From a virus: DNA of 64,000 nucleotides. The DNA lies in IMG/VR virus record IMGVR_UViG_3300045988_160113, positions 32,001 to 96,000 of that record. The stretch is one strand, 5' to 3'. A program made the position numbers and the translations under genes. Every line of letters starts with the position of its first letter. The stretch's first letter is position 1. Below the pieces are notes generated by a model. That model was not told the origin of the DNA, made no database searches, and saw only the letters and a list, made by a program, of their open reading frames with translations. This document shows, piece after piece, positions 1 through 64,000 of the stretch.

Positions 1-1
1 T

Positions 2-1123
2 GTTATTGATGAAGACATTGATAGAGTTATTGACTCTATGGAAGAAGCCAATGATAAACAGCAAGAAAATTGGGATAATGTAATTGATAAATTACAAGAG
101 CAATTAGATCAAGATAAGGAAAACGGTAAGTTTATTAGATTGGCTGAACAGAAATTTGAAGAAGGCCCGGAAGCTGTTATGAAACAGTTTGAGATTTTCT
201 TTAGAACTGGGAATACTCCATATTCTCAAGCAGAAATTGACCAAAAACTGAAAGAAGTCCTTGATAAACTTGATAATGCTTTTGAATATTATAATGGTAA
301 TAATCCAGCAGAAAATCCTGGTGGCACTGGTAATAAGAATTATACTCCTATAAAATATTTAGACCCTAATGGTAATGTACAGCAAGGTTATATTTCTTCT
401 GAAGGTAAAACTTATAAAGATAGAGGACTTACTGAAAGAGTCGATGAGGGTAGTATCGTTCCTGATGCGGCAGGCAAACACGCTTGGAAACTAGTCGGAG
501 ATAAGGGTGTTGATGTTACCAATCAACTCACTGATGCGCAAAAAAGAATGCTTGGCATTGGTACTGGTGGTCAAGGTACTTCAAGTAGTAATATTAATAC
601 AAATACTACTACAAGTCGTGCTAAAGTTGCTAATACTGGTGGAAAGGGTGTAAATCTCAGAAGCGGCCCTGGTCAAAATTATAGAAAAGTTGGTGCTTAT
701 TCTGATGGTACTACTGTTACAGTTCTTGATGAATCTAATAGTGCTTGGTGGAAAGTAAAAGTTGGTAATGCTACTGGCTATATGGCTTCTCAATATTTGA
801 AGAAATATTTAAATGGTGGTTTAGTAGATTTTACTGGTCCTGCTTGGGTTGATGGTAGTAAATCTGCTCCTGAAGCTTTCCTTAATGCACAAGATACTCG
901 TAATTTTGCTCAACTGAAAGATATCTTGGCTTCGCTTCTGCGCGCCGACCGTTTCAAAGCAAATGAAGTTACTACTGCGCGTGGAGGAGACTGTACTATT
1001 TATGTTACCGTTGACCAGATTGCTTCTGATTATGATGTTGATGAAGCAGTCGCGCGAATCAAGCAAGAAATTATGAGTGGTAGTGCTTATAGAAATATAA
1101 ATCTTGTGAATCGTCACAGATAA
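2..1123 (+). CDS. Tail tape-measure-like protein, C-terminal part (open at window start) with SH3b-like domain
   Basis: The reading frame is open from nt 2, so the listed ATG at 38 is probably internal. It has a coiled-coil-like N-terminal part and an SH3b-like stretch (GVNLRSGPGQNYRKVGAYSDGTTVTVLDESNSAWWKVKV). It sits directly upstream of Dit- and Tal-like genes. Confidence 0.5.
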   Translation, partial: VIDEDIDRVIDSMEEANDKQQENWDNVIDKLQEQLDQDKENGKFIRLAEQKFEEGPEAVMKQFEIFFRTGNTPYSQAEIDQKLKEVLDKLDNAFEYYNGNNPAENPGGTGNKNYTPIKYLDPNGNVQQGYISSEGKTYKDRGLTERVDEGSIVPDAAGKHAWKLVGDKGVDVTNQLTDAQKRMLGIGTGGQGTSSSNINTNTTTSRAKVANTGGKGVNLRSGPGQNYRKVGAYSDGTTVTVLDESNSAWWKVKVGNATGYMASQYLKKYLNGGLVDFTGPAWVDGSKSAPEAFLNAQDTRNFAQLKDILASLLRADRFKANEVTTARGGDCTIYVTVDQIASDYDVDEAVARIKQEIMSGSAYRNINLVNRHR

Positions 1124-1128
1124 GGAGA

Positions 1129-2046
1129 ATGAAAATGAGAAGTATTGATGAACTTAGACCAATAAGACATAGTGATATGGTTGGTTTTTATTTTGGTGAC
1201 TATCATACCTCTCAATTTGGACTCGTTAGAGTTAGTAGCGGAAACAGGTACACTGAGTACCTGTTTCCAACACTAAAAACCAATACAGTTGATAATAATA
1301 GTATAGATGGAAGTTTATATTTTGGTACAAATAAATCAACTCGTACTTTCCAAATTGATTTGGCTTTTGATGGTGTAACCGAAGATGATTTGAGAGATAT
1401 AAAGGAATGGCTAACTGGTGTCCATCCACTTATTTTTGATGAAAGACCTTATGTCGCTTATACCTGTACTCTTAATAGCGCGCCGCAGATAAAATTTCTA
1501 ACTTTTGATGAAGATGGAGATAGAGTTTATAAAGGTGAAATGAGCATTACTTTTATGAGTTATTTACCATATGGTTATACAATAAAGGGGAAGAAATATA
1601 TTGATGACTTCCTTGATGAAAATTTTGATGAATGGAGTAGTGCTAGTAAATTAGTTTGGAAAGATGGATTAGATGAGTTCAAAGAAGGACAAATAAATTT
1701 ATATAATGGTGGAGATGTAGAAACAGATTACACACTTACTTTCTATACAACTGCGGCAGGAAAAGCTAAAATTATGTTAGGAAGCAATTCTTATGAATTT
1801 ACTTTACCTTCTCCTACCAAAACCCATTTAGAAGTAAAAATAAATTCTAAACTACAACTTGCACAATATAGTAATGTAAAAATTGAAGGTAATAAGGTAA
1901 TAGAAAGTGATAATACTAATACTATATTAATTACTGATTCACTAATTTCCTGTATTCCTACTGGAAAATCTATACTTACATATGAGATAGATAGTTTAGA
2001 TATTAATGCTCCAAATAGTATTGAATATAGATATCGGTTCTTGTAA
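1129..2046 (+). CDS. Distal tail protein (Dit-like, siphovirus tail component)
   Basis: It lies between the TMP-like and Tal-like genes and is about 300 aa. The sequence resembles Sipho_tail family proteins (…RTFQIDLAFDGVTEDDLRDIKEWL…FDERPYVAYTC…). GGAGA SD lies 5 nt before the ATG. Confidence 0.55.
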   Translation: MKMRSIDELRPIRHSDMVGFYFGDYHTSQFGLVRVSSGNRYTEYLFPTLKTNTVDNNSIDGSLYFGTNKSTRTFQIDLAFDGVTEDDLRDIKEWLTGVHPLIFDERPYVAYTCTLNSAPQIKFLTFDEDGDRVYKGEMSITFMSYLPYGYTIKGKKYIDDFLDENFDEWSSASKLVWKDGLDEFKEGQINLYNGGDVETDYTLTFYTTAAGKAKIMLGSNSYEFTLPSPTKTHLEVKINSKLQLAQYSNVKIEGNKVIESDNTNTILITDSLISCIPTGKSILTYEIDSLDINAPNSIEYRYRFL

Positions 2047-2060
2047 AAGGAGTTGATAGA

Positions 2061-62196: not shown

Positions 62197-62292
62197 ATAA
62201 TTAGAGAGTGGGAAGAGAACACTCTCCTACCTTATTTACTTATTTTTCTTTCTCTTCCCACTCTACTACATTATACTATGGAGGAATTTACC

Positions 62293-62646
62293 ATGTCTGA
62301 ATCCGCTCATCATGCTCCTGCGCCCGTTCCGCAACCGATTCCAGTTTATAAAACCGTCGATATTTCTACAGTCAAACGACAAGGTGATACTTGGTTACTA
62401 AACTCTCAACTCACCTATACCGATTCTCAAAACTTCTCATCTGTCCATTTTATCTCAAATGGTCAATCATTTACCGCTATTTCTCATTACCCAAAAGACA
62501 ATTCCGAATGTCTTTATTATGACCTCATCAAAGTCAATAACGGCTCTCCATTTTGGCTTGATGATAACTATCGAGTAATATCACTTACTCATAAACCAGA
62601 TAAGAAATTACTCGCCTGGCTTACTGCTAATGGCGTAAAGATATAG
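62293..62646 (+). CDS. Hypothetical protein (117 aa)
   Basis: The ATG at 62293 lies 8 nt after GGAGG. The ORF-track start at 62278 falls inside the SD. Confidence 0.55.
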   Translation: MSESAHHAPAPVPQPIPVYKTVDISTVKRQGDTWLLNSQLTYTDSQNFSSVHFISNGQSFTAISHYPKDNSECLYYDLIKVNNGSPFWLDDNYRVISLTHKPDKKLLAWLTANGVKI

Positions 62647-62692
62647 ATTTTTAGGAGAGCGGAAGCTCTTCTTTTTTTATAGGAGGAATATA

Positions 62693-63484
62693 ATGACAGA
62701 ACAAAACCTGCGTAGGCTAGTAGTAGACACATTCTGTTCCTATAATGGTGCCAAACAGAATTCTACTAAACACAAAAACCTTATTGACACATACAACACA
62801 ATTATCCCTCTTCCTCGTGGAGTGAAGATGACTTACTCCATGTCTTGGTGTGCGGCAACAGTAAGCGCGATTTCACAGAAGCTTGGACTGACAGATATTC
62901 TTCTTCCTGAGTGTTCCTGCTCCAAAATGATTGAAGCGTATCAAAAAATTGGCCGCTGGGAAGAGCGTGATAACTATGTTCCTCAGATTGGCGACTTAGT
63001 TATGTATGACTGGCAAGATGGAAGTGATTATGTTAGTGTAGATAATACCGGTGCACCCGACCATGTTGGTATGGTGGTTGATGTGAATAAGGCTTCGAAA
63101 ATGATGAGAATTATCGAAGGGAATAAAGGAACTCCATCAACTTGTGGATATCGATCACTACAAATCAATGGACGATTTATTAGAGGATTCTGTTTACCAG
63201 ATTATGCAAAGGCTGCTAAGACATACAAGACAAGTTCCACTACAAAAATTGAATATTGTAGCGTAAACCTACCAGTTCTCACTCAAGGCGCGACTGGACA
63301 AACTGTAGAGACACTACAAGTTATACTGCGCGCGCTGGGATATAAGATTGATTTAGATGGTTCTTTCGGTCCTGCGACGGCGAATGCACTCAGTCAGTTC
63401 CAGAAAGGGAGTGGCCTAGCGGTTGATAAGTCCTGTGGACCTCTTACATGGACCGCTTTGATTACAGGAGGAGAATTGAAATGA
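62693..63484 (+). CDS. Endolysin: CHAP/NlpC-P60-like amidase/peptidase plus C-terminal PG_binding_1 domain
   Basis: Cys motif MSWCAATVS, His motif PDHVGMVVDV, IIEGN, and a C-terminal GATGQTVETLQVILRALGYKIDLDGSFGPATANALSQFQ. Confidence 0.7.
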   Translation: MTEQNLRRLVVDTFCSYNGAKQNSTKHKNLIDTYNTIIPLPRGVKMTYSMSWCAATVSAISQKLGLTDILLPECSCSKMIEAYQKIGRWEERDNYVPQIGDLVMYDWQDGSDYVSVDNTGAPDHVGMVVDVNKASKMMRIIEGNKGTPSTCGYRSLQINGRFIRGFCLPDYAKAAKTYKTSSTTKIEYCSVNLPVLTQGATGQTVETLQVILRALGYKIDLDGSFGPATANALSQFQKGSGLAVDKSCGPLTWTALITGGELK

Positions 63485-64000
63485 AATACTATGTATCTAA
63501 TGGTATCAAAATTATTGAATGCGCGCCCAGTGAATTCAAAGTGGTCATGGTGAATCAACACAAGAAAAATGTGCGCAAGTCCACTTTTGTAAATGCGAAT
63601 TTCTTTGCGGGTGGGCAGAAACTCAACAATGAAGTATTCACGTTACCAGTAAATCACCTTATTTGTGATTATGAAGCAAGTGGAAACTCGGAGCGGATTC
63701 GTAATGAGCAGCGTGGCACTTTCAAAGGTAATAAATATTACTATGATTCTTACTCTTACGGCGCACCCACTGACCAATTCTATCATAAAACCTTGACTGT
63801 CTTGGCTATCAAGAACAAAAAGCCAAGCATCTTTGATATGGCTGTATTGGATAAGTCATATGAATATCTTGTTGCTGGTATTCCAGTAATGAAGAATGGC
63901 AAGGATGTAAAGTGGAAGACTTATGTTTCTAAGCAAGGTTGGACTGGTGGTGAGCTATATGGAACCTATCACATTTTTGCTGGTTTGAAGAATGGAACTG
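63481..64000 (+). CDS. Hypothetical protein, 3' end outside the window (not in the ORF track)
   Basis: The ATG at 63481 overlaps the endolysin stop (ATGA). The frame is open to the window end (MKYYVSNGIKIIECAPSEFKVVMVNQ…). Confidence 0.5.
   Translation, partial: MKYYVSNGIKIIECAPSEFKVVMVNQHKKNVRKSTFVNANFFAGGQKLNNEVFTLPVNHLICDYEASGNSERIRNEQRGTFKGNKYYYDSYSYGAPTDQFYHKTLTVLAIKNKKPSIFDMAVLDKSYEYLVAGIPVMKNGKDVKWKTYVSKQGWTGGELYGTYHIFAGLKNGT

What the first reader, a model, noticed from the sequence alone, without database searches (positions are those of the whole stretch)
1..64000. Massive over-representation of the palindrome GCGCGC (often CTGCGCGC/GCGCGCAG) in an AT-rich genome
By manual scan I find about 60 GCGCGC hexamers. 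Examples: 940, 1478, 4636, 4892, 5866, 7956, 8255, 8762, 9790, 13001, 13547, 13837, 14679, 14747, 15138, 16806, 18955, 19150, 23009, 25621, 27816, 28753, 29770, 33581, 33816, 33904, 33951, 34752, 36934, 40481, 40963, 41073, 41856, 42338, 42555, 43242, 43506, 44720, 45521, 45555, 46705, 46942, 47221, 47576, 47667, 48200, 48477, 49888, 49947, 50245, 50539, 50577, 51507, 56075, 58784, 59180, 63328, 63521. About 15 further sites carry CGCGCG only.

With roughly one-third GC, a base-composition estimate predicts only one or two per 64 kb.

The sites occur in all three reading frames on both coding strands, as Arg-Ala, Ala-Arg or xGC-GCG-Cxx. Codon choice has therefore been bent to create them, even though AGA is the common Arg codon.

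They also occur in non-coding DNA: 46698-46710 in the divergent control region, and AGGAGGCGCGCA(A)TG between SD and ATG at 44714-44729 and 60083-60095.

About half are extended to CTGCGCGC or GCGCGCAG, and four form the 10-mer CTGCGCGCAG (4890, 8253, 42553, 46940).

Phages usually avoid 6-bp palindromes, so positive selection for this one suggests a genome-wide functional site. Candidates are a target for a phage-encoded nicking, modification or recombination activity, a Z-DNA-prone (CG)3 element, or a packaging/condensation signal. Site-specific nicks in T5-like phages are a loose precedent.
Basis: seen in the sequence. Interest (0 to 1): 0.75.

Follow-up and report, generated by a model that had tools for sequence, protein, structure and literature searches.

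The report
Hyper-abundant GC palindrome in gut phage
A large AT-rich gut phage carries the short palindrome GCGCGC about thirty times more often than chance, its relatives carry other GC-rich palindromes in the same way, and comparing strains shows a force that keeps creating these sites, which is the opposite of the usual palindrome avoidance in phages.

Summary
The window (35.3% GC) holds 65 GCGCGC and 49 CGCGCG, in 77 alternating G/C runs of 6-8 nt. A first-order Markov model expects about 2 of each, and synonymous-codon shuffles give 16±3 and 10±3. Sites fall in all three reading frames, on both strands and in non-coding DNA. The soft consensus is (C)T-GCGCGC-A(G).

The window belongs to a ~135-kb SPbeta-like siphophage known only from gut metagenomes. 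Four strains at 87-90% identity show fast site turnover with a clear directional bias. At fourfold-degenerate sites, word-creating transitions fix at 29% against 7.8% elsewhere, and word-destroying ones at 13% against 28%.

Relatives carry other hyper-abundant GC-rich palindromes: TGCGGCCGCA, CCGCGG, TGGCGCGCCA and TCGCSGCGA. These switch polyphyletically on the polymerase tree. SPbeta, with the same GC content, has none.

This argues against Z-DNA and composition, and for recognition by a dimeric, restriction-modification-type activity. It is a phage analogue of cyanobacterial HIP elements.

No cytosine methyltransferase or Vsr was found in ~105 kb of the genome, and the host is unknown. The mechanism is therefore inferred. 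I favour host-specified methylation-linked biased repair (about 0.35). Selected protein-binding sites are a close rival.

The parts
1..64000 (.). Genome-wide set of 77 alternating G/C runs of 6-8 nt, containing 65 GCGCGC and 49 CGCGCG. Average density is 1.2 per kb.
   Evidence: Run coordinates: 940-945, 1051-1056, 1478-1483, 4636-4641, 4892-4897, 5866-5872, 7955-7962, 8255-8260, 8761-8767, 9790-9795, 13001-13007, 13537-13542, 13827-13832, 14679-14685, 14747-14752, 14830-14835, 15138-15143, 16806-16811, 18954-18960, 19150-19155, 23009-23014, 23285-23290, 25621-25626, 26070-26075, 26522-26529, 27816-27822, 28752-28758, 29769-29775, 32725-32730, 33581-33587, 33816-33822, 33903-33910, 33951-33956, 34752-34757, 35268-35273, 36857-36864, 36934-36940, 39527-39532, 40480-40487, 40963-40968, 41072-41078, 41856-41862, 42338-42344, 42378-42383, 42555-42560, 43241-43247, 43506-43513, 44720-44725, 45521-45526, 45555-45562, 46698-46703, 46705-46710, 46942-46947, 47220-47225, 47576-47581, 47667-47672, 48200-48205, 48477-48482, 49887-49893, 49947-49952, 50202-50207, 50244-50250, 50307-50312, 50410-50415, 50538-50544, 50577-50583, 50775-50780, 51507-51512, 56075-56081, 56149-56154, 58784-58789, 59180-59185, 60087-60092, 61617-61622, 61881-61887, 63328-63335, 63521-63526. 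Enrichment statistics.
4890..4899 (.). Full 10-nt palindrome CTGCGCGCAG
   Evidence: The order-1 expectation for this 10-mer in the window is 0.01.
8253..8262 (.). Full 10-nt palindrome CTGCGCGCAG
42553..42562 (.). Full 10-nt palindrome CTGCGCGCAG
46940..46949 (.). Full 10-nt palindrome CTGCGCGCAG
46698..46710 (.). Non-coding double site CGCGCGGGCGCGC in the divergent intergenic region, just upstream of a TATAAT box
   Evidence: Sequence read
44714..44729 (+). Non-coding site AGGAGGCGCGCAATG, between a ribosome-binding site and the ATG of a small ORF
60080..60095 (+). AGGAGGCGCGCATG, between a ribosome-binding site and an ATG upstream of the DUF6273 gene body
   Evidence: flanks printed
40000..52000 (.). 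Densest stretch: 30 of the 77 runs lie in 12 kb. The adjoining 52-56 kb has none.
   Evidence: counts per 4-kb bin; CV of spacing 1.17, P about 0.05
16238..33857 (-). Replication-module stretch aligned with three strain relatives (L001, L005, L006). It was used to measure gain and loss of sites.

Best explanation
What it is (shown). The window is part of a ~135-kb SPbeta-like siphophage from gut metagenomes. Its DNA is peppered with a short, strand-symmetric GC word: an alternating G/C run of 5-8 nt (mode 6, either register) with soft flanks, (C)T-GCGCGC-A(G). The word is imposed at the DNA level across reading frames, strands and intergenic DNA. In present-day populations a directional fixation bias maintains it. 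Changes that create the word fix 4-5 times more often than matched changes, and changes that destroy it fix about half as often. Individual sites nevertheless turn over quickly. Related phages carry other GC-rich palindromes at similar abundance, and the word switches repeatedly on the phylogeny. It is therefore a phage counterpart of the highly iterated palindromes (HIPs) of cyanobacteria.

How it most likely works (inferred). The word is the recognition sequence of a dimeric, restriction-modification-type DNA activity that the phage meets in its host. The likeliest form is a site-specific cytosine methyltransferase coupled to T:G-mismatch (very-short-patch-like) correction. T:G mismatches arise in replicating or recombining phage DNA. 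In near-cognate TG/CA variants these would be resolved towards CG, which is a context-specific biased gene conversion. When a lineage moves to hosts with another specificity, the old word decays by CpG transitions and a new one builds up.
For: 1. DNA-level enrichment survives codon-preserving shuffles (z = 15-20). It is seen in all frames. Ala-Arg and Arg-Ala codon pairs are bent 9-10-fold towards the word.

2. The word is palindromic and shows no strand polarity. GCGCG and CGCGC occur 124 and 112 times, and CTGCGCGC and GCGCGCAG occur 19 and 13 times with no relation to gene strand. The flanks are symmetric, with T at -1 in 62% of run ends and C at -2 in 45%.

3. Strain comparison used four strains at 87-90% nt identity. 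Sites in the shared ~10 kb number 8, 14, 17 and 17. Over the same 17 kb there are 26 GCGCGC in L006 against 11 in the window.

4. Orthologous non-word states are almost all CpG transitions, such as GCACGT, GCGCAC and GTGCGC. The ts:tv ratio is 54:10 at word columns against 1989:729 elsewhere. Some changes alter amino acids (Arg/His, Ala/Val, Ala/Thr).

5. At fourfold-degenerate sites on terminal branches, AT>GC transitions that make a run of 5 or more fix at 10/34, against 174/2217 elsewhere (OR 4.9, P = 2e-4). GC>AT transitions inside such runs fix at 10/79, against 29/103 elsewhere (OR 0.37, P = 0.017). Non-alternating G/C runs show no protection (8/25).

6. Word hexamers are conserved 50% between strains. 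Other GC-only hexamers are conserved 20%, and hexamers with two or more CpG 31%.

7. The words in relatives are all typical Type II recognition palindromes. They are TGCGGCCGCA and GCGGCC (L020, L017, L018, L045-48), CCGCGG, TGGCGCGCCA (L013, L007) and TCGCSGCGA (L019). They are distributed polyphyletically on the polymerase tree.

8. The large differences in site density between strains only 12% apart fit a driver that is gained and lost at strain level. Restriction-modification genes behave this way (established knowledge).

9. A HIP precedent exists with a methylation-linked repair model (PMC4390886).
Against: - No cytosine-5 methyltransferase or Vsr-like gene was found. The search covered the window, 8 kb upstream, and everything downstream to the contig end, about 105 of 130-135 kb.
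- The host is unknown. MAG bins of relatives disagree, so the key prediction of the same word and a cognate methyltransferase in the host is untested.
- In E. coli, very-short-patch repair is credited with only modest skews of CCWGG-type words (my recollection of Bhagwat & McClelland 1992). That is far from 30-fold.
- CpG is not generally hypermutable in these strains, at 2.4% against 2.3%.
- SPbeta encodes a GGCC/GCNGC methyltransferase, yet GGCC is not enriched there, at 40 observed against 50 expected.
- For HIP1 itself, a comparative study favoured selection over biased repair (PMC5861425).
Confidence: 0.35

Rival explanations
1. The words are selected binding or recognition sites for a dimeric protein, phage- or host-encoded, that acts on phage DNA genome-wide. 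Possible roles are compaction or packaging, replication or recombination, and self-marking against a defence or a phage nuclease. Density matters rather than position. Accumulation could be by weak selection per site, or by a transmission drive like that of DNA uptake sequences.
For: - The enrichment is 30-fold at about 1-3 sites per kb. The fixation bias is equivalent to a population-scaled advantage of about 2 per nucleotide. Both are typical of weakly selected genome-wide words.
- Symmetric flanks imply a dimer.
- The word is dense over the whole genome, including the early-gene region.
- HIP1 was judged to be under selection (PMC5861425).
Against: - Sites are no more conserved than average hexamers.
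- Density differs two-fold between strains 12% apart.
- Word identity changes several times within the clade. Each change would need a binding protein and more than 100 sites to change together.
- No candidate binding protein was identified. The conserved NPPF methyltransferase is equally similar in lineages carrying different words.
Confidence: 0.3
2. The driver is a phage-encoded enzyme, either a cytosine methyltransferase, nickase or repair nuclease. It would be hidden in the ~25 kb not seen or among unrecognised ORFs, and would act on the phage's own DNA.
For: - SPbeta-group phages classically encode multispecific C5 methyltransferases, for example mtbP in SPbeta.
- The genome has many unannotated ORFs, at least 8 homing-endonuclease-like genes, a ligase and a RuvC-like resolvase.
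Against: - There is no methyltransferase at the position syntenic with mtbP.
- Pfam and motif scans found no C5 methyltransferase in about 105 kb. The unseen part is the head and packaging module.
- The only methyltransferase found is adenine-type, and GCGCGC contains no adenine.
Confidence: 0.12
3. The word is a Chi-like signal for the host AddAB/RexAB nuclease, written as an inverted pair so that it works from either end, and it protects linear or rolling-circle phage DNA.
For: - Known Firmicute Chi sequences are short and GC-rich and resemble the half-sites. From memory, these are B. subtilis AGCGG and L. lactis GCGCGTG.
- Variation between lineages would follow host Chi variation.
- CTGCGGC shows a weak plus-strand bias of 15:5, independent of gene strand.
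Against: - Chi is asymmetric and polar, and nothing requires the two orientations to be fused into a palindrome.
- The main word shows no polarity.
- A scan for polar words found nothing significant after multiple testing.
Confidence: 0.08
4. The runs are Z-DNA-prone (CG)3 structural elements, or a by-product of composition or codon usage.
For: - d(CGCGCG) is the classic Z-forming hexamer (established knowledge).
- In the window both registers of the alternating run are enriched.
Against: - Relatives have equally abundant non-alternating palindromes, GCGGCCGC and CCGCGG.
- Runs longer than 6 are not favoured: 7- and 8-mers lie at or below their maximal-order Markov expectation (ratios 0.43-0.96, none significantly low).
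- Specific T...A flanks are present.
- Codon-preserving shuffles and the SPbeta control exclude composition.
- Alternating GC runs of 6 or more are generally under-represented in prokaryotes (PMC4060949).
Confidence: 0.03

Closest known systems
HIP1 (GCGATCGC) and alternate highly iterated palindromes of cyanobacteria
   Same: - It is a GC-rich palindrome enriched tens of fold.
- It occurs about once per kb, in all reading frames and in intergenic DNA.
- Related lineages carry different palindromes.
- One-off variants cluster at the outer positions.
- The same open question applies: is the cause selection or methylation-linked repair (PMC4390886, PMC5861425)?
   Different: - It occurs in a phage of gut Firmicutes, not a cyanobacterial chromosome.
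- The word is 6 nt, in two registers with soft flanks, rather than a fixed 8-mer.
- No cognate methyltransferase was found.
- Sites are not conserved above the genome average.
- No periodic spacing was detected.
Very-short-patch (Dcm/Vsr) repair skew of CCWGG-type words in E. coli
   Same: - The force is context-specific and converts TG/CA to CG within a methyltransferase recognition site.
- The variants seen here are overwhelmingly CpG transitions.
   Different: - The effect in E. coli is modest (from memory), whereas here it is about 30-fold.
- No Vsr or Dcm homologue was seen.
- Transition one-off variants are not depleted in the window.
DNA uptake sequences (USS/DUS) and Chi
   Same: - They are genome-wide words at roughly one per kb to one per few kb.
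- They are tolerated in coding DNA.
- They are maintained by weak selection or a transmission drive.
- They are lineage-specific.
   Different: - Those words are asymmetric. Chi is also polar, and the uptake sequences are longer (9-12 nt).
- The word here is a strand-symmetric palindrome of restriction-site type.
Restriction-site avoidance in phages, and site-specific nicks of T5
   Same: - The word is a classical Type II site, the BssHII site GCGCGC, and it contains the HhaI and BstUI sites.
- T5 nick sites are reported to contain GCGC (from memory).
   Different: - The sign is opposite to avoidance.
- T5 has a handful of single-strand nicks. A nick at a palindrome would fall on both strands, at more than 100 places.

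Membership tests
Highly iterated palindromes (HIP-type elements) | Short GC-rich palindrome over-represented more than 15-fold against composition-aware models | tested here: met
   GCGCGC occurs 65 times against 2.3 expected, and CGCGCG 49 times against 1.6 (order-1 Markov). Both are 4-5-fold above synonymous shuffles.
Highly iterated palindromes (HIP-type elements) | Spread over the whole genome at about one per kb, in all frames and in intergenic DNA | tested here: met
   There are 77 runs in 64 kb. The three frames hold 23, 21 and 14 sites. About 1.5 GCGCGC per kb occur in the downstream loci L031 and L033.
Highly iterated palindromes (HIP-type elements) | Related lineages carry alternate palindromes | tested here: met
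   Relatives carry TGCGGCCGCA, CCGCGG, TGGCGCGCCA or TCGCSGCGA.
Highly iterated palindromes (HIP-type elements) | A methyltransferase specific for the word, or its core, is present in the same genome | tested here: inconclusive
   No cytosine methyltransferase was found in about 105 kb of the phage genome, only an NPPF adenine-type enzyme. About 25 kb of the phage is unseen, and the host genome is unknown.
Highly iterated palindromes (HIP-type elements) | Sites conserved between genomes more than expected | tested here: inconclusive
   Conservation is 50.3%, equal to all hexamers (50.4%). It is 1.6-2.5 times above GC-matched hexamers. The loss rate at fourfold sites is halved.
Chi-like recombination signals | Asymmetric word with strand polarity along the replicon | tested here: not met
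   The word is a palindrome. Its odd-length cores occur 124 and 112 times on the two strands. No significant polar word was found.
Chi-like recombination signals | Recognised by the host RecBCD or AddAB nuclease | not testable with these tools
   The host is unknown and biochemistry would be needed.
Z-DNA-forming (CG)n tracts | Alternating purine-pyrimidine sequence is the shared property, and longer tracts are favoured | tested here: not met
   Relatives use the non-alternating GCGGCCGC and CCGCGG. Runs of 7-8 nt lie at or below the expectation from their sub-words (ratios 0.43-0.96, none significantly low), so longer tracts are not favoured.
Restriction-site avoidance | Palindromic Type II sites are depleted in the phage genome | tested here: not met
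   The sign is opposite here. SPbeta shows the usual pattern, with 1 CGCG against 22 expected.
T5-type site-specific nicks | Few sites, nicked on one strand only, with a phage nickase | not testable with these tools
   This needs virion DNA. The symmetry and number of sites make it unlikely (inference).

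The most novel reading that the evidence does not exclude
A whole clade of ~115-160-kb gut siphophages uses lineage-specific GC-rich palindromes as genome-wide identity tags. A dedicated recognition system, phage- or host-encoded, reads them. Possible purposes are self/non-self discrimination, protection from a nuclease, or preferential recombination or packaging. The tag is swapped for another palindrome as lineages diverge. This would be a new class of phage genome signal, analogous in logic to Chi or uptake sequences but palindromic and rapidly switching.
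Probability: 0.2. Interest if true: 0.88.

Novelty: new variant of a known kind. Interest (0 to 1): 0.72.

Why it matters
Phages are expected to purge short palindromes because these are restriction targets. Here a clade of abundant, uncultured gut phages does the reverse. It accumulates restriction-site-like GC palindromes 30-fold, with a measurable ongoing drive, and the word switches between lineages.

If the driver is host methylation-linked repair, phage word content becomes a readable record of host restriction-modification history and a tool for host assignment. If the words are selected, they mark an unknown genome-wide DNA transaction in large Firmicute phages.

Either way, the system offers a fast-evolving, small-genome model for the unresolved HIP1 problem. 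Gain and loss can be measured between natural strains, and recoded phages could be built to test the alternatives.

Tried and rejected
- **Phage identity.** Megablast against INPHARED found nothing. The best protein matches are only 36-38% identical: Geobacillus GR1, Enterocloster phages and SPbeta.
- **Host assignment.** Relatives in GTDB genomes are all MAG contigs with contradictory taxonomy: Erysipelotrichaceae, Bacilli, Acutalibacteraceae, Oscillospiraceae, Bacteroidales, Methanobrevibacter and Treponema. I drew no host conclusion from them.
- **Search for a cytosine methyltransferase or Vsr.**
  - Pfam and PHROG scans covered about 40 window ORFs.
  - Motif scans covered all fetched loci.
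  - A walk from the window end to the contig end used cluster-member look-ups.
  - The result was only a 268-aa NPPF amino-methyltransferase. Its model resembles HsdM, M.TaqI, M.BseCI and small RNA methyltransferases. It is conserved in lineages with different words, so it does not explain word identity.
  - The DUF2726-containing ORF next to the ligase was considered as a Vsr-like nuclease. It belongs instead to a homing-endonuclease-like family with four paralogues and has no PDB sequence match.
- **Maximal-order Markov analysis.** The hexamer count equals the expectation from its pentamers. This reflects the self-overlapping word, not an absence of signal. The run-length distribution and the shuffles are the informative tests.
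- **Polarity and spacing.** The polar-word scan, spacing and helical-periodicity tests and GC-content correlation were all negative or marginal.
- **Depletion of one-off transition variants,** expected from a pure VSP ratchet, was not seen. These variants are 1-5 times enriched.
- **SPbeta as a test of "phage methyltransferase implies enriched target".** GGCC is not enriched there.
- **Literature.** I found no report of hyper-abundant GC palindromes in phages.

Full report
**1. The observation**

The window is 64,000 bp at 35.3% GC. It contains 65 GCGCGC and 49 CGCGCG.

Three coordinates are off by 1-10 nt, and six sites were missed. The claims about the four CTGCGCGCAG 10-mers, the 15 CGCGCG-only sites and the non-coding occurrences all hold.

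Expected counts are far lower than observed:
- Base composition gives 1.9.
- A first-order Markov model gives 2.3 and 1.6.
- Shuffling synonymous codons within each gene keeps protein sequence and codon usage. It is conservative because it retains the codons recruited to make the word. It gives 16.0±2.8 and 10.4±2.6, never more than 24 and 18 in 300 trials.

The lengths of maximal alternating G/C runs do not decay geometrically. Lengths 4 to 8 occur 95, 45, 48, 21 and 8 times. The enriched object is therefore an alternating run of about six bases in either register.

Variants at the outer positions stay 5-12-fold enriched, while internal variants are near background. The flanks are symmetric: T at -1 in 62% of G-ended run ends and C at -2 in 45%. 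For 3-nt runs the corresponding figures are 40% and 26%.

Other properties of the sites:
- GCGCGC falls in the three reading frames 23, 21 and 14 times, in many amino-acid contexts.
- A quarter of all Ala-Arg and Arg-Ala dipeptides are written GCG-CGC or CGC-GCG, about ten times the expectation from codon usage.
- Sites are spread over the whole window with only mild clustering. They are dense at 40-52 kb and absent at 52-56 kb. There is no helical periodicity and no relation to local GC content.
- Alternating GC runs of 6 nt or more are generally under-represented in prokaryotes (PMC4060949).
- 49 kb of Bacillus phage SPbeta, at the same GC content, has none, and it avoids CGCG (1 observed against 22 expected).

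**2. What genome this is**

The genes are those of a large SPbeta-like siphophage:
- YorF/G/H/I/J/K/L-type replication genes in SPbeta order
- A PolIII-alpha-like polymerase
- A RecJ-like exonuclease
- A DnaB-type helicase
- Type II topoisomerase genes
- NrdD
- A dUTPase
- A ligase
- RNase H
- A dNMP kinase
- A RuvC-like resolvase
- Yom-type tail genes

The window is identical over its last 11.3 kb to a 135,452-bp metagenomic contig. No close relative is in the phage reference collection. Hundreds of strain-level and clade-level relatives exist in gut metagenome assemblies, on contigs of 110-160 kb.

**3. Comparison of strains**

Three contigs at 87-90% nt identity overlap window 16.2-33.9 kb. 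Site positions turn over quickly. Of 28 word positions aligned in all four strains, only 3 are shared by all.

The window is the poorest strain. It has 8 sites in the shared ~10 kb, against 14, 17 and 17 in the others. Over 17 kb it has 11 GCGCGC against 26 in L006.

The orthologous non-word states are almost always CpG transitions, such as GCACGT, GCGCAC, GTGCGC and CGTGCA. The ts:tv ratio is 54:10 at word columns, against 1989:729 elsewhere. Several of these changes alter the protein (Arg/His, Ala/Val, Ala/Thr).

I polarised changes on terminal branches and restricted the analysis to fourfold-degenerate sites:

| Change at fourfold sites | Context | Fixed / opportunities | Rate | vs other sites |
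|---|---|---|---|---|
| AT>GC transition | creates an alternating run of 5 or more | 10/34 | 29% | OR 4.9, P = 2.4e-4 |
| AT>GC transition | creates a non-alternating G/C run of 5 or more (control) | 30/257 | 11.7% | OR 1.55, P = 0.04 |
| AT>GC transition | other sites | 174/2217 | 7.8% | reference |
| GC>AT transition | inside an alternating run of 5 or more | 10/79 | 13% | OR 0.37, P = 0.017 |
| GC>AT transition | inside a non-alternating G/C run of 5 or more (control) | 8/25 | 32% | not significant |
| GC>AT transition | other sites | 29/103 | 28% | reference |

The combined ratio, about 8 (taken from the run-of-6-or-more rates), corresponds to a population-scaled bias of about 2 per nucleotide (inference).

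Word hexamers are conserved between strains at 50%, the same as average hexamers. Other GC-only hexamers are conserved at 20%, and hexamers with two or more CpG at 31%.

A word-specific directional force is therefore acting now. Sequence alone cannot tell whether it is weak selection or biased conversion.

**4. Comparison across the clade**

Loci around the polymerase and around a conserved methyltransferase-like gene were fetched from metagenomes, MAGs and IMG/VR. The alternating-GC word is hyper-abundant in many lineages. Examples:
- L013: 57 observed against 3.9 expected
- L055: 52 against 2.6
- L036-L044: 20-40 per 20 kb

Other lineages lack this word and carry other GC-rich palindromes at similar excess:
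- TGCGGCCGCA and GCGGCC in L020, L017, L018 and L045-48
- CCGCGG in L045-47
- TGGCGCGCCA in L013 and L007
- TCGCSGCGA in L019

Some lineages carry mixtures (L003, L004). On a polymerase tree these classes are polyphyletic. More distant phages with a homologue of the methyltransferase-like gene (53% identity or less) show nothing of the kind.

All of the words are bracketed by T...A. The window also has a second, weaker word, (C)TGCSGCA(G). It occurs 36 times against 10±2.4 in synonymous shuffles.

The common denominator across the clade is GC-rich palindromy of restriction-site type, not purine-pyrimidine alternation. This removes the Z-DNA reading. It points to recognition by a symmetric, sequence-specific activity whose specificity changes often.

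**5. Search for a driver**

I found no cytosine-5 or N4 methyltransferase and no Vsr-like endonuclease. The search covered the window, the 8 kb upstream (tail module), and the ~40 kb downstream to the contig end. About 25 kb remains unseen, presumably the head and packaging genes.

The position syntenic with the SPbeta methyltransferase gene mtbP holds only an unannotated 350-aa ORF and a 64-aa ORF.

Near the genome end there is a conserved 268-aa protein with IEPSxGxGxF and GNPPFG motifs. Its AlphaFold model has pLDDT 86. The best structural matches are N6-adenine DNA methyltransferases (HsdM, M.TaqI, M.BseCI) and small RNA methyltransferases. This protein is similarly conserved in lineages with different words, and GCGCGC contains no adenine. 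It does not explain the word, though the conserved flanking A leaves a loose end.

The host could not be identified.

**6. Interpretation**

The phenomenon matches cyanobacterial HIP elements in every descriptive feature that I could test. Like them, it leaves selection versus methylation-linked repair open (PMC4390886, PMC5861425).

I favour a host-specified, restriction-modification-type driver with biased T:G correction, at about 0.35, for four reasons:
- The words are a catalogue of Type II sites.
- The words switch polyphyletically.
- Site density differs two-fold between strains only 12% apart.
- The variants are CpG transitions.

Against this:
- No such enzyme was seen.
- The host is untested.
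- Very-short-patch effects known from E. coli are small.
- SPbeta's own methylated GGCC is not enriched.

The rivals, in order:
- Selected sites for a dimeric protein acting genome-wide, or a transmission drive of the uptake-sequence kind: about 0.3.
- A phage-encoded enzyme hidden in the unseen or unannotated part: about 0.12.
- A double-orientation Chi: about 0.08. This is weakened by the lack of polarity.
- Z-DNA or composition: effectively excluded.

**7. Novelty**

I found no report of hyper-abundant GC palindromes in phages. The finding is a new variant of a known but unexplained kind. It runs against the usual palindrome avoidance of phages. It also supplies a tractable natural system, with many strains, fast turnover and switching words, for testing how such words arise.

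Noticed in passing
window 56773-59193 (also 52082-53194): A diversity-generating retroelement is present. The reverse transcriptase is at 58261-59193 and the template repeat at 58006-58117. The variable repeat at 57373-57484 lies at the 3' end of a DUF6273 gene. All 19 mismatches in the 112-nt core fall at template adenines. An Mtd_N-domain protein lies at 52082-53194.
   Followed up: partly
window 60033-62036: A GC-rich island sits in a 35% GC phage. Gene 60033-61223 (DUF6273) is 54% GC and gene 61236-62036 (CBM_5_12) is 65% GC. It looks like a recent acquisition or a strongly constrained receptor-binding module.
   Followed up: no
window 9979-10887: A group I intron (Rfam RF00028, 79.7 bits) lies at 10610-10887. 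It directly follows a GIY-YIG homing-endonuclease gene at 9979-10635, within the structural-gene block.
   Followed up: partly
window 19674-24792 and 35079-37980: The PolIII-alpha-like polymerase gene is split into 835-aa and 502-aa ORFs by a GIY-YIG endonuclease gene at 21329-22150. Relatives have one ORF of about 1324 aa. The topoisomerase II/GyrB-like gene is split in the same way by a GIY-YIG gene at 35590-36306.
   Followed up: partly
window 9979-10635, 15300-16205, 21329-22150, 35590-36306, 37964-38710, 40415-41509, 42215-42700, 43703-44584: At least eight homing-endonuclease-like genes occur in 64 kb. Four are GIY-YIG. Four are paralogues of a PHROG 374/559/9084 'HNH/intron-encoded nuclease' family, and one of these has a DUF2726-like C-terminus.
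   Followed up: partly
window-wide; examples TGCGGCA/TGCCGCA (21 sites): A second DNA-level word, (C)TGCSGCA(G), is present. CTGCSGC/GCSGCAG occurs 36 times against 10±2.4 in synonymous shuffles. It is also common in most relatives. CTGCGGC lies 15:5 on the plus strand whatever the gene orientation (9:1 in the minus-strand gene block), which is not significant after multiple testing.
   Followed up: partly
L033:18552-19358 (same phage lineage, ~58 kb downstream of the window end): A conserved 268-aa amino-methyltransferase carries IEPSVGAGAF and GNPPFG motifs. Pfam barely detects it. Its AlphaFold model has pLDDT 86, and the best Foldseek matches are HsdM, M.TaqI, M.BseCI and small RNA methyltransferases. 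It is present across the clade at 46-97% identity, and its substrate is unknown.
   Followed up: yes
window 13343-14799, 16207-18438, 45167-45709; L031:20183-20596: A nucleotide-metabolism set is present: a dUTPase fusion protein (275 aa), a divergent ThyX-like protein (below the Pfam cut-off; PHROG 6721), NrdD, a T4-type dNMP kinase and a dCMP deaminase. It could simply feed dTTP to an AT-rich genome, or it could point to a modified base.
   Followed up: no
window 52000-56000: This 4-kb stretch holds the Mtd-like gene and neighbouring tail-fibre-region genes and contains no GCGCGC or CGCGCG at all. It may be a recently exchanged module that has not yet acquired the word.
   Followed up: no
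window regions 1-12.6 kb and 46.6-64 kb: CTGGTG, TGGTGG and ACTGGT are strongly enriched on the coding strand only. CTGGTG occurs 29:1 in the plus-strand gene blocks and 6:5 in the minus-strand block. This is probably a protein-level Gly/Thr-rich repeat effect in the structural genes, not a Chi-like signal. GCTGGTGG occurs only once.
   Followed up: partly
L028 (SPbeta 85-134 kb): In SPbeta, CGCG is almost absent (1 observed against 22 expected) and ACTA/TACTA are depleted. GCWGC is enriched 2.3-fold. This served as a contrast for the window.
   Followed up: no
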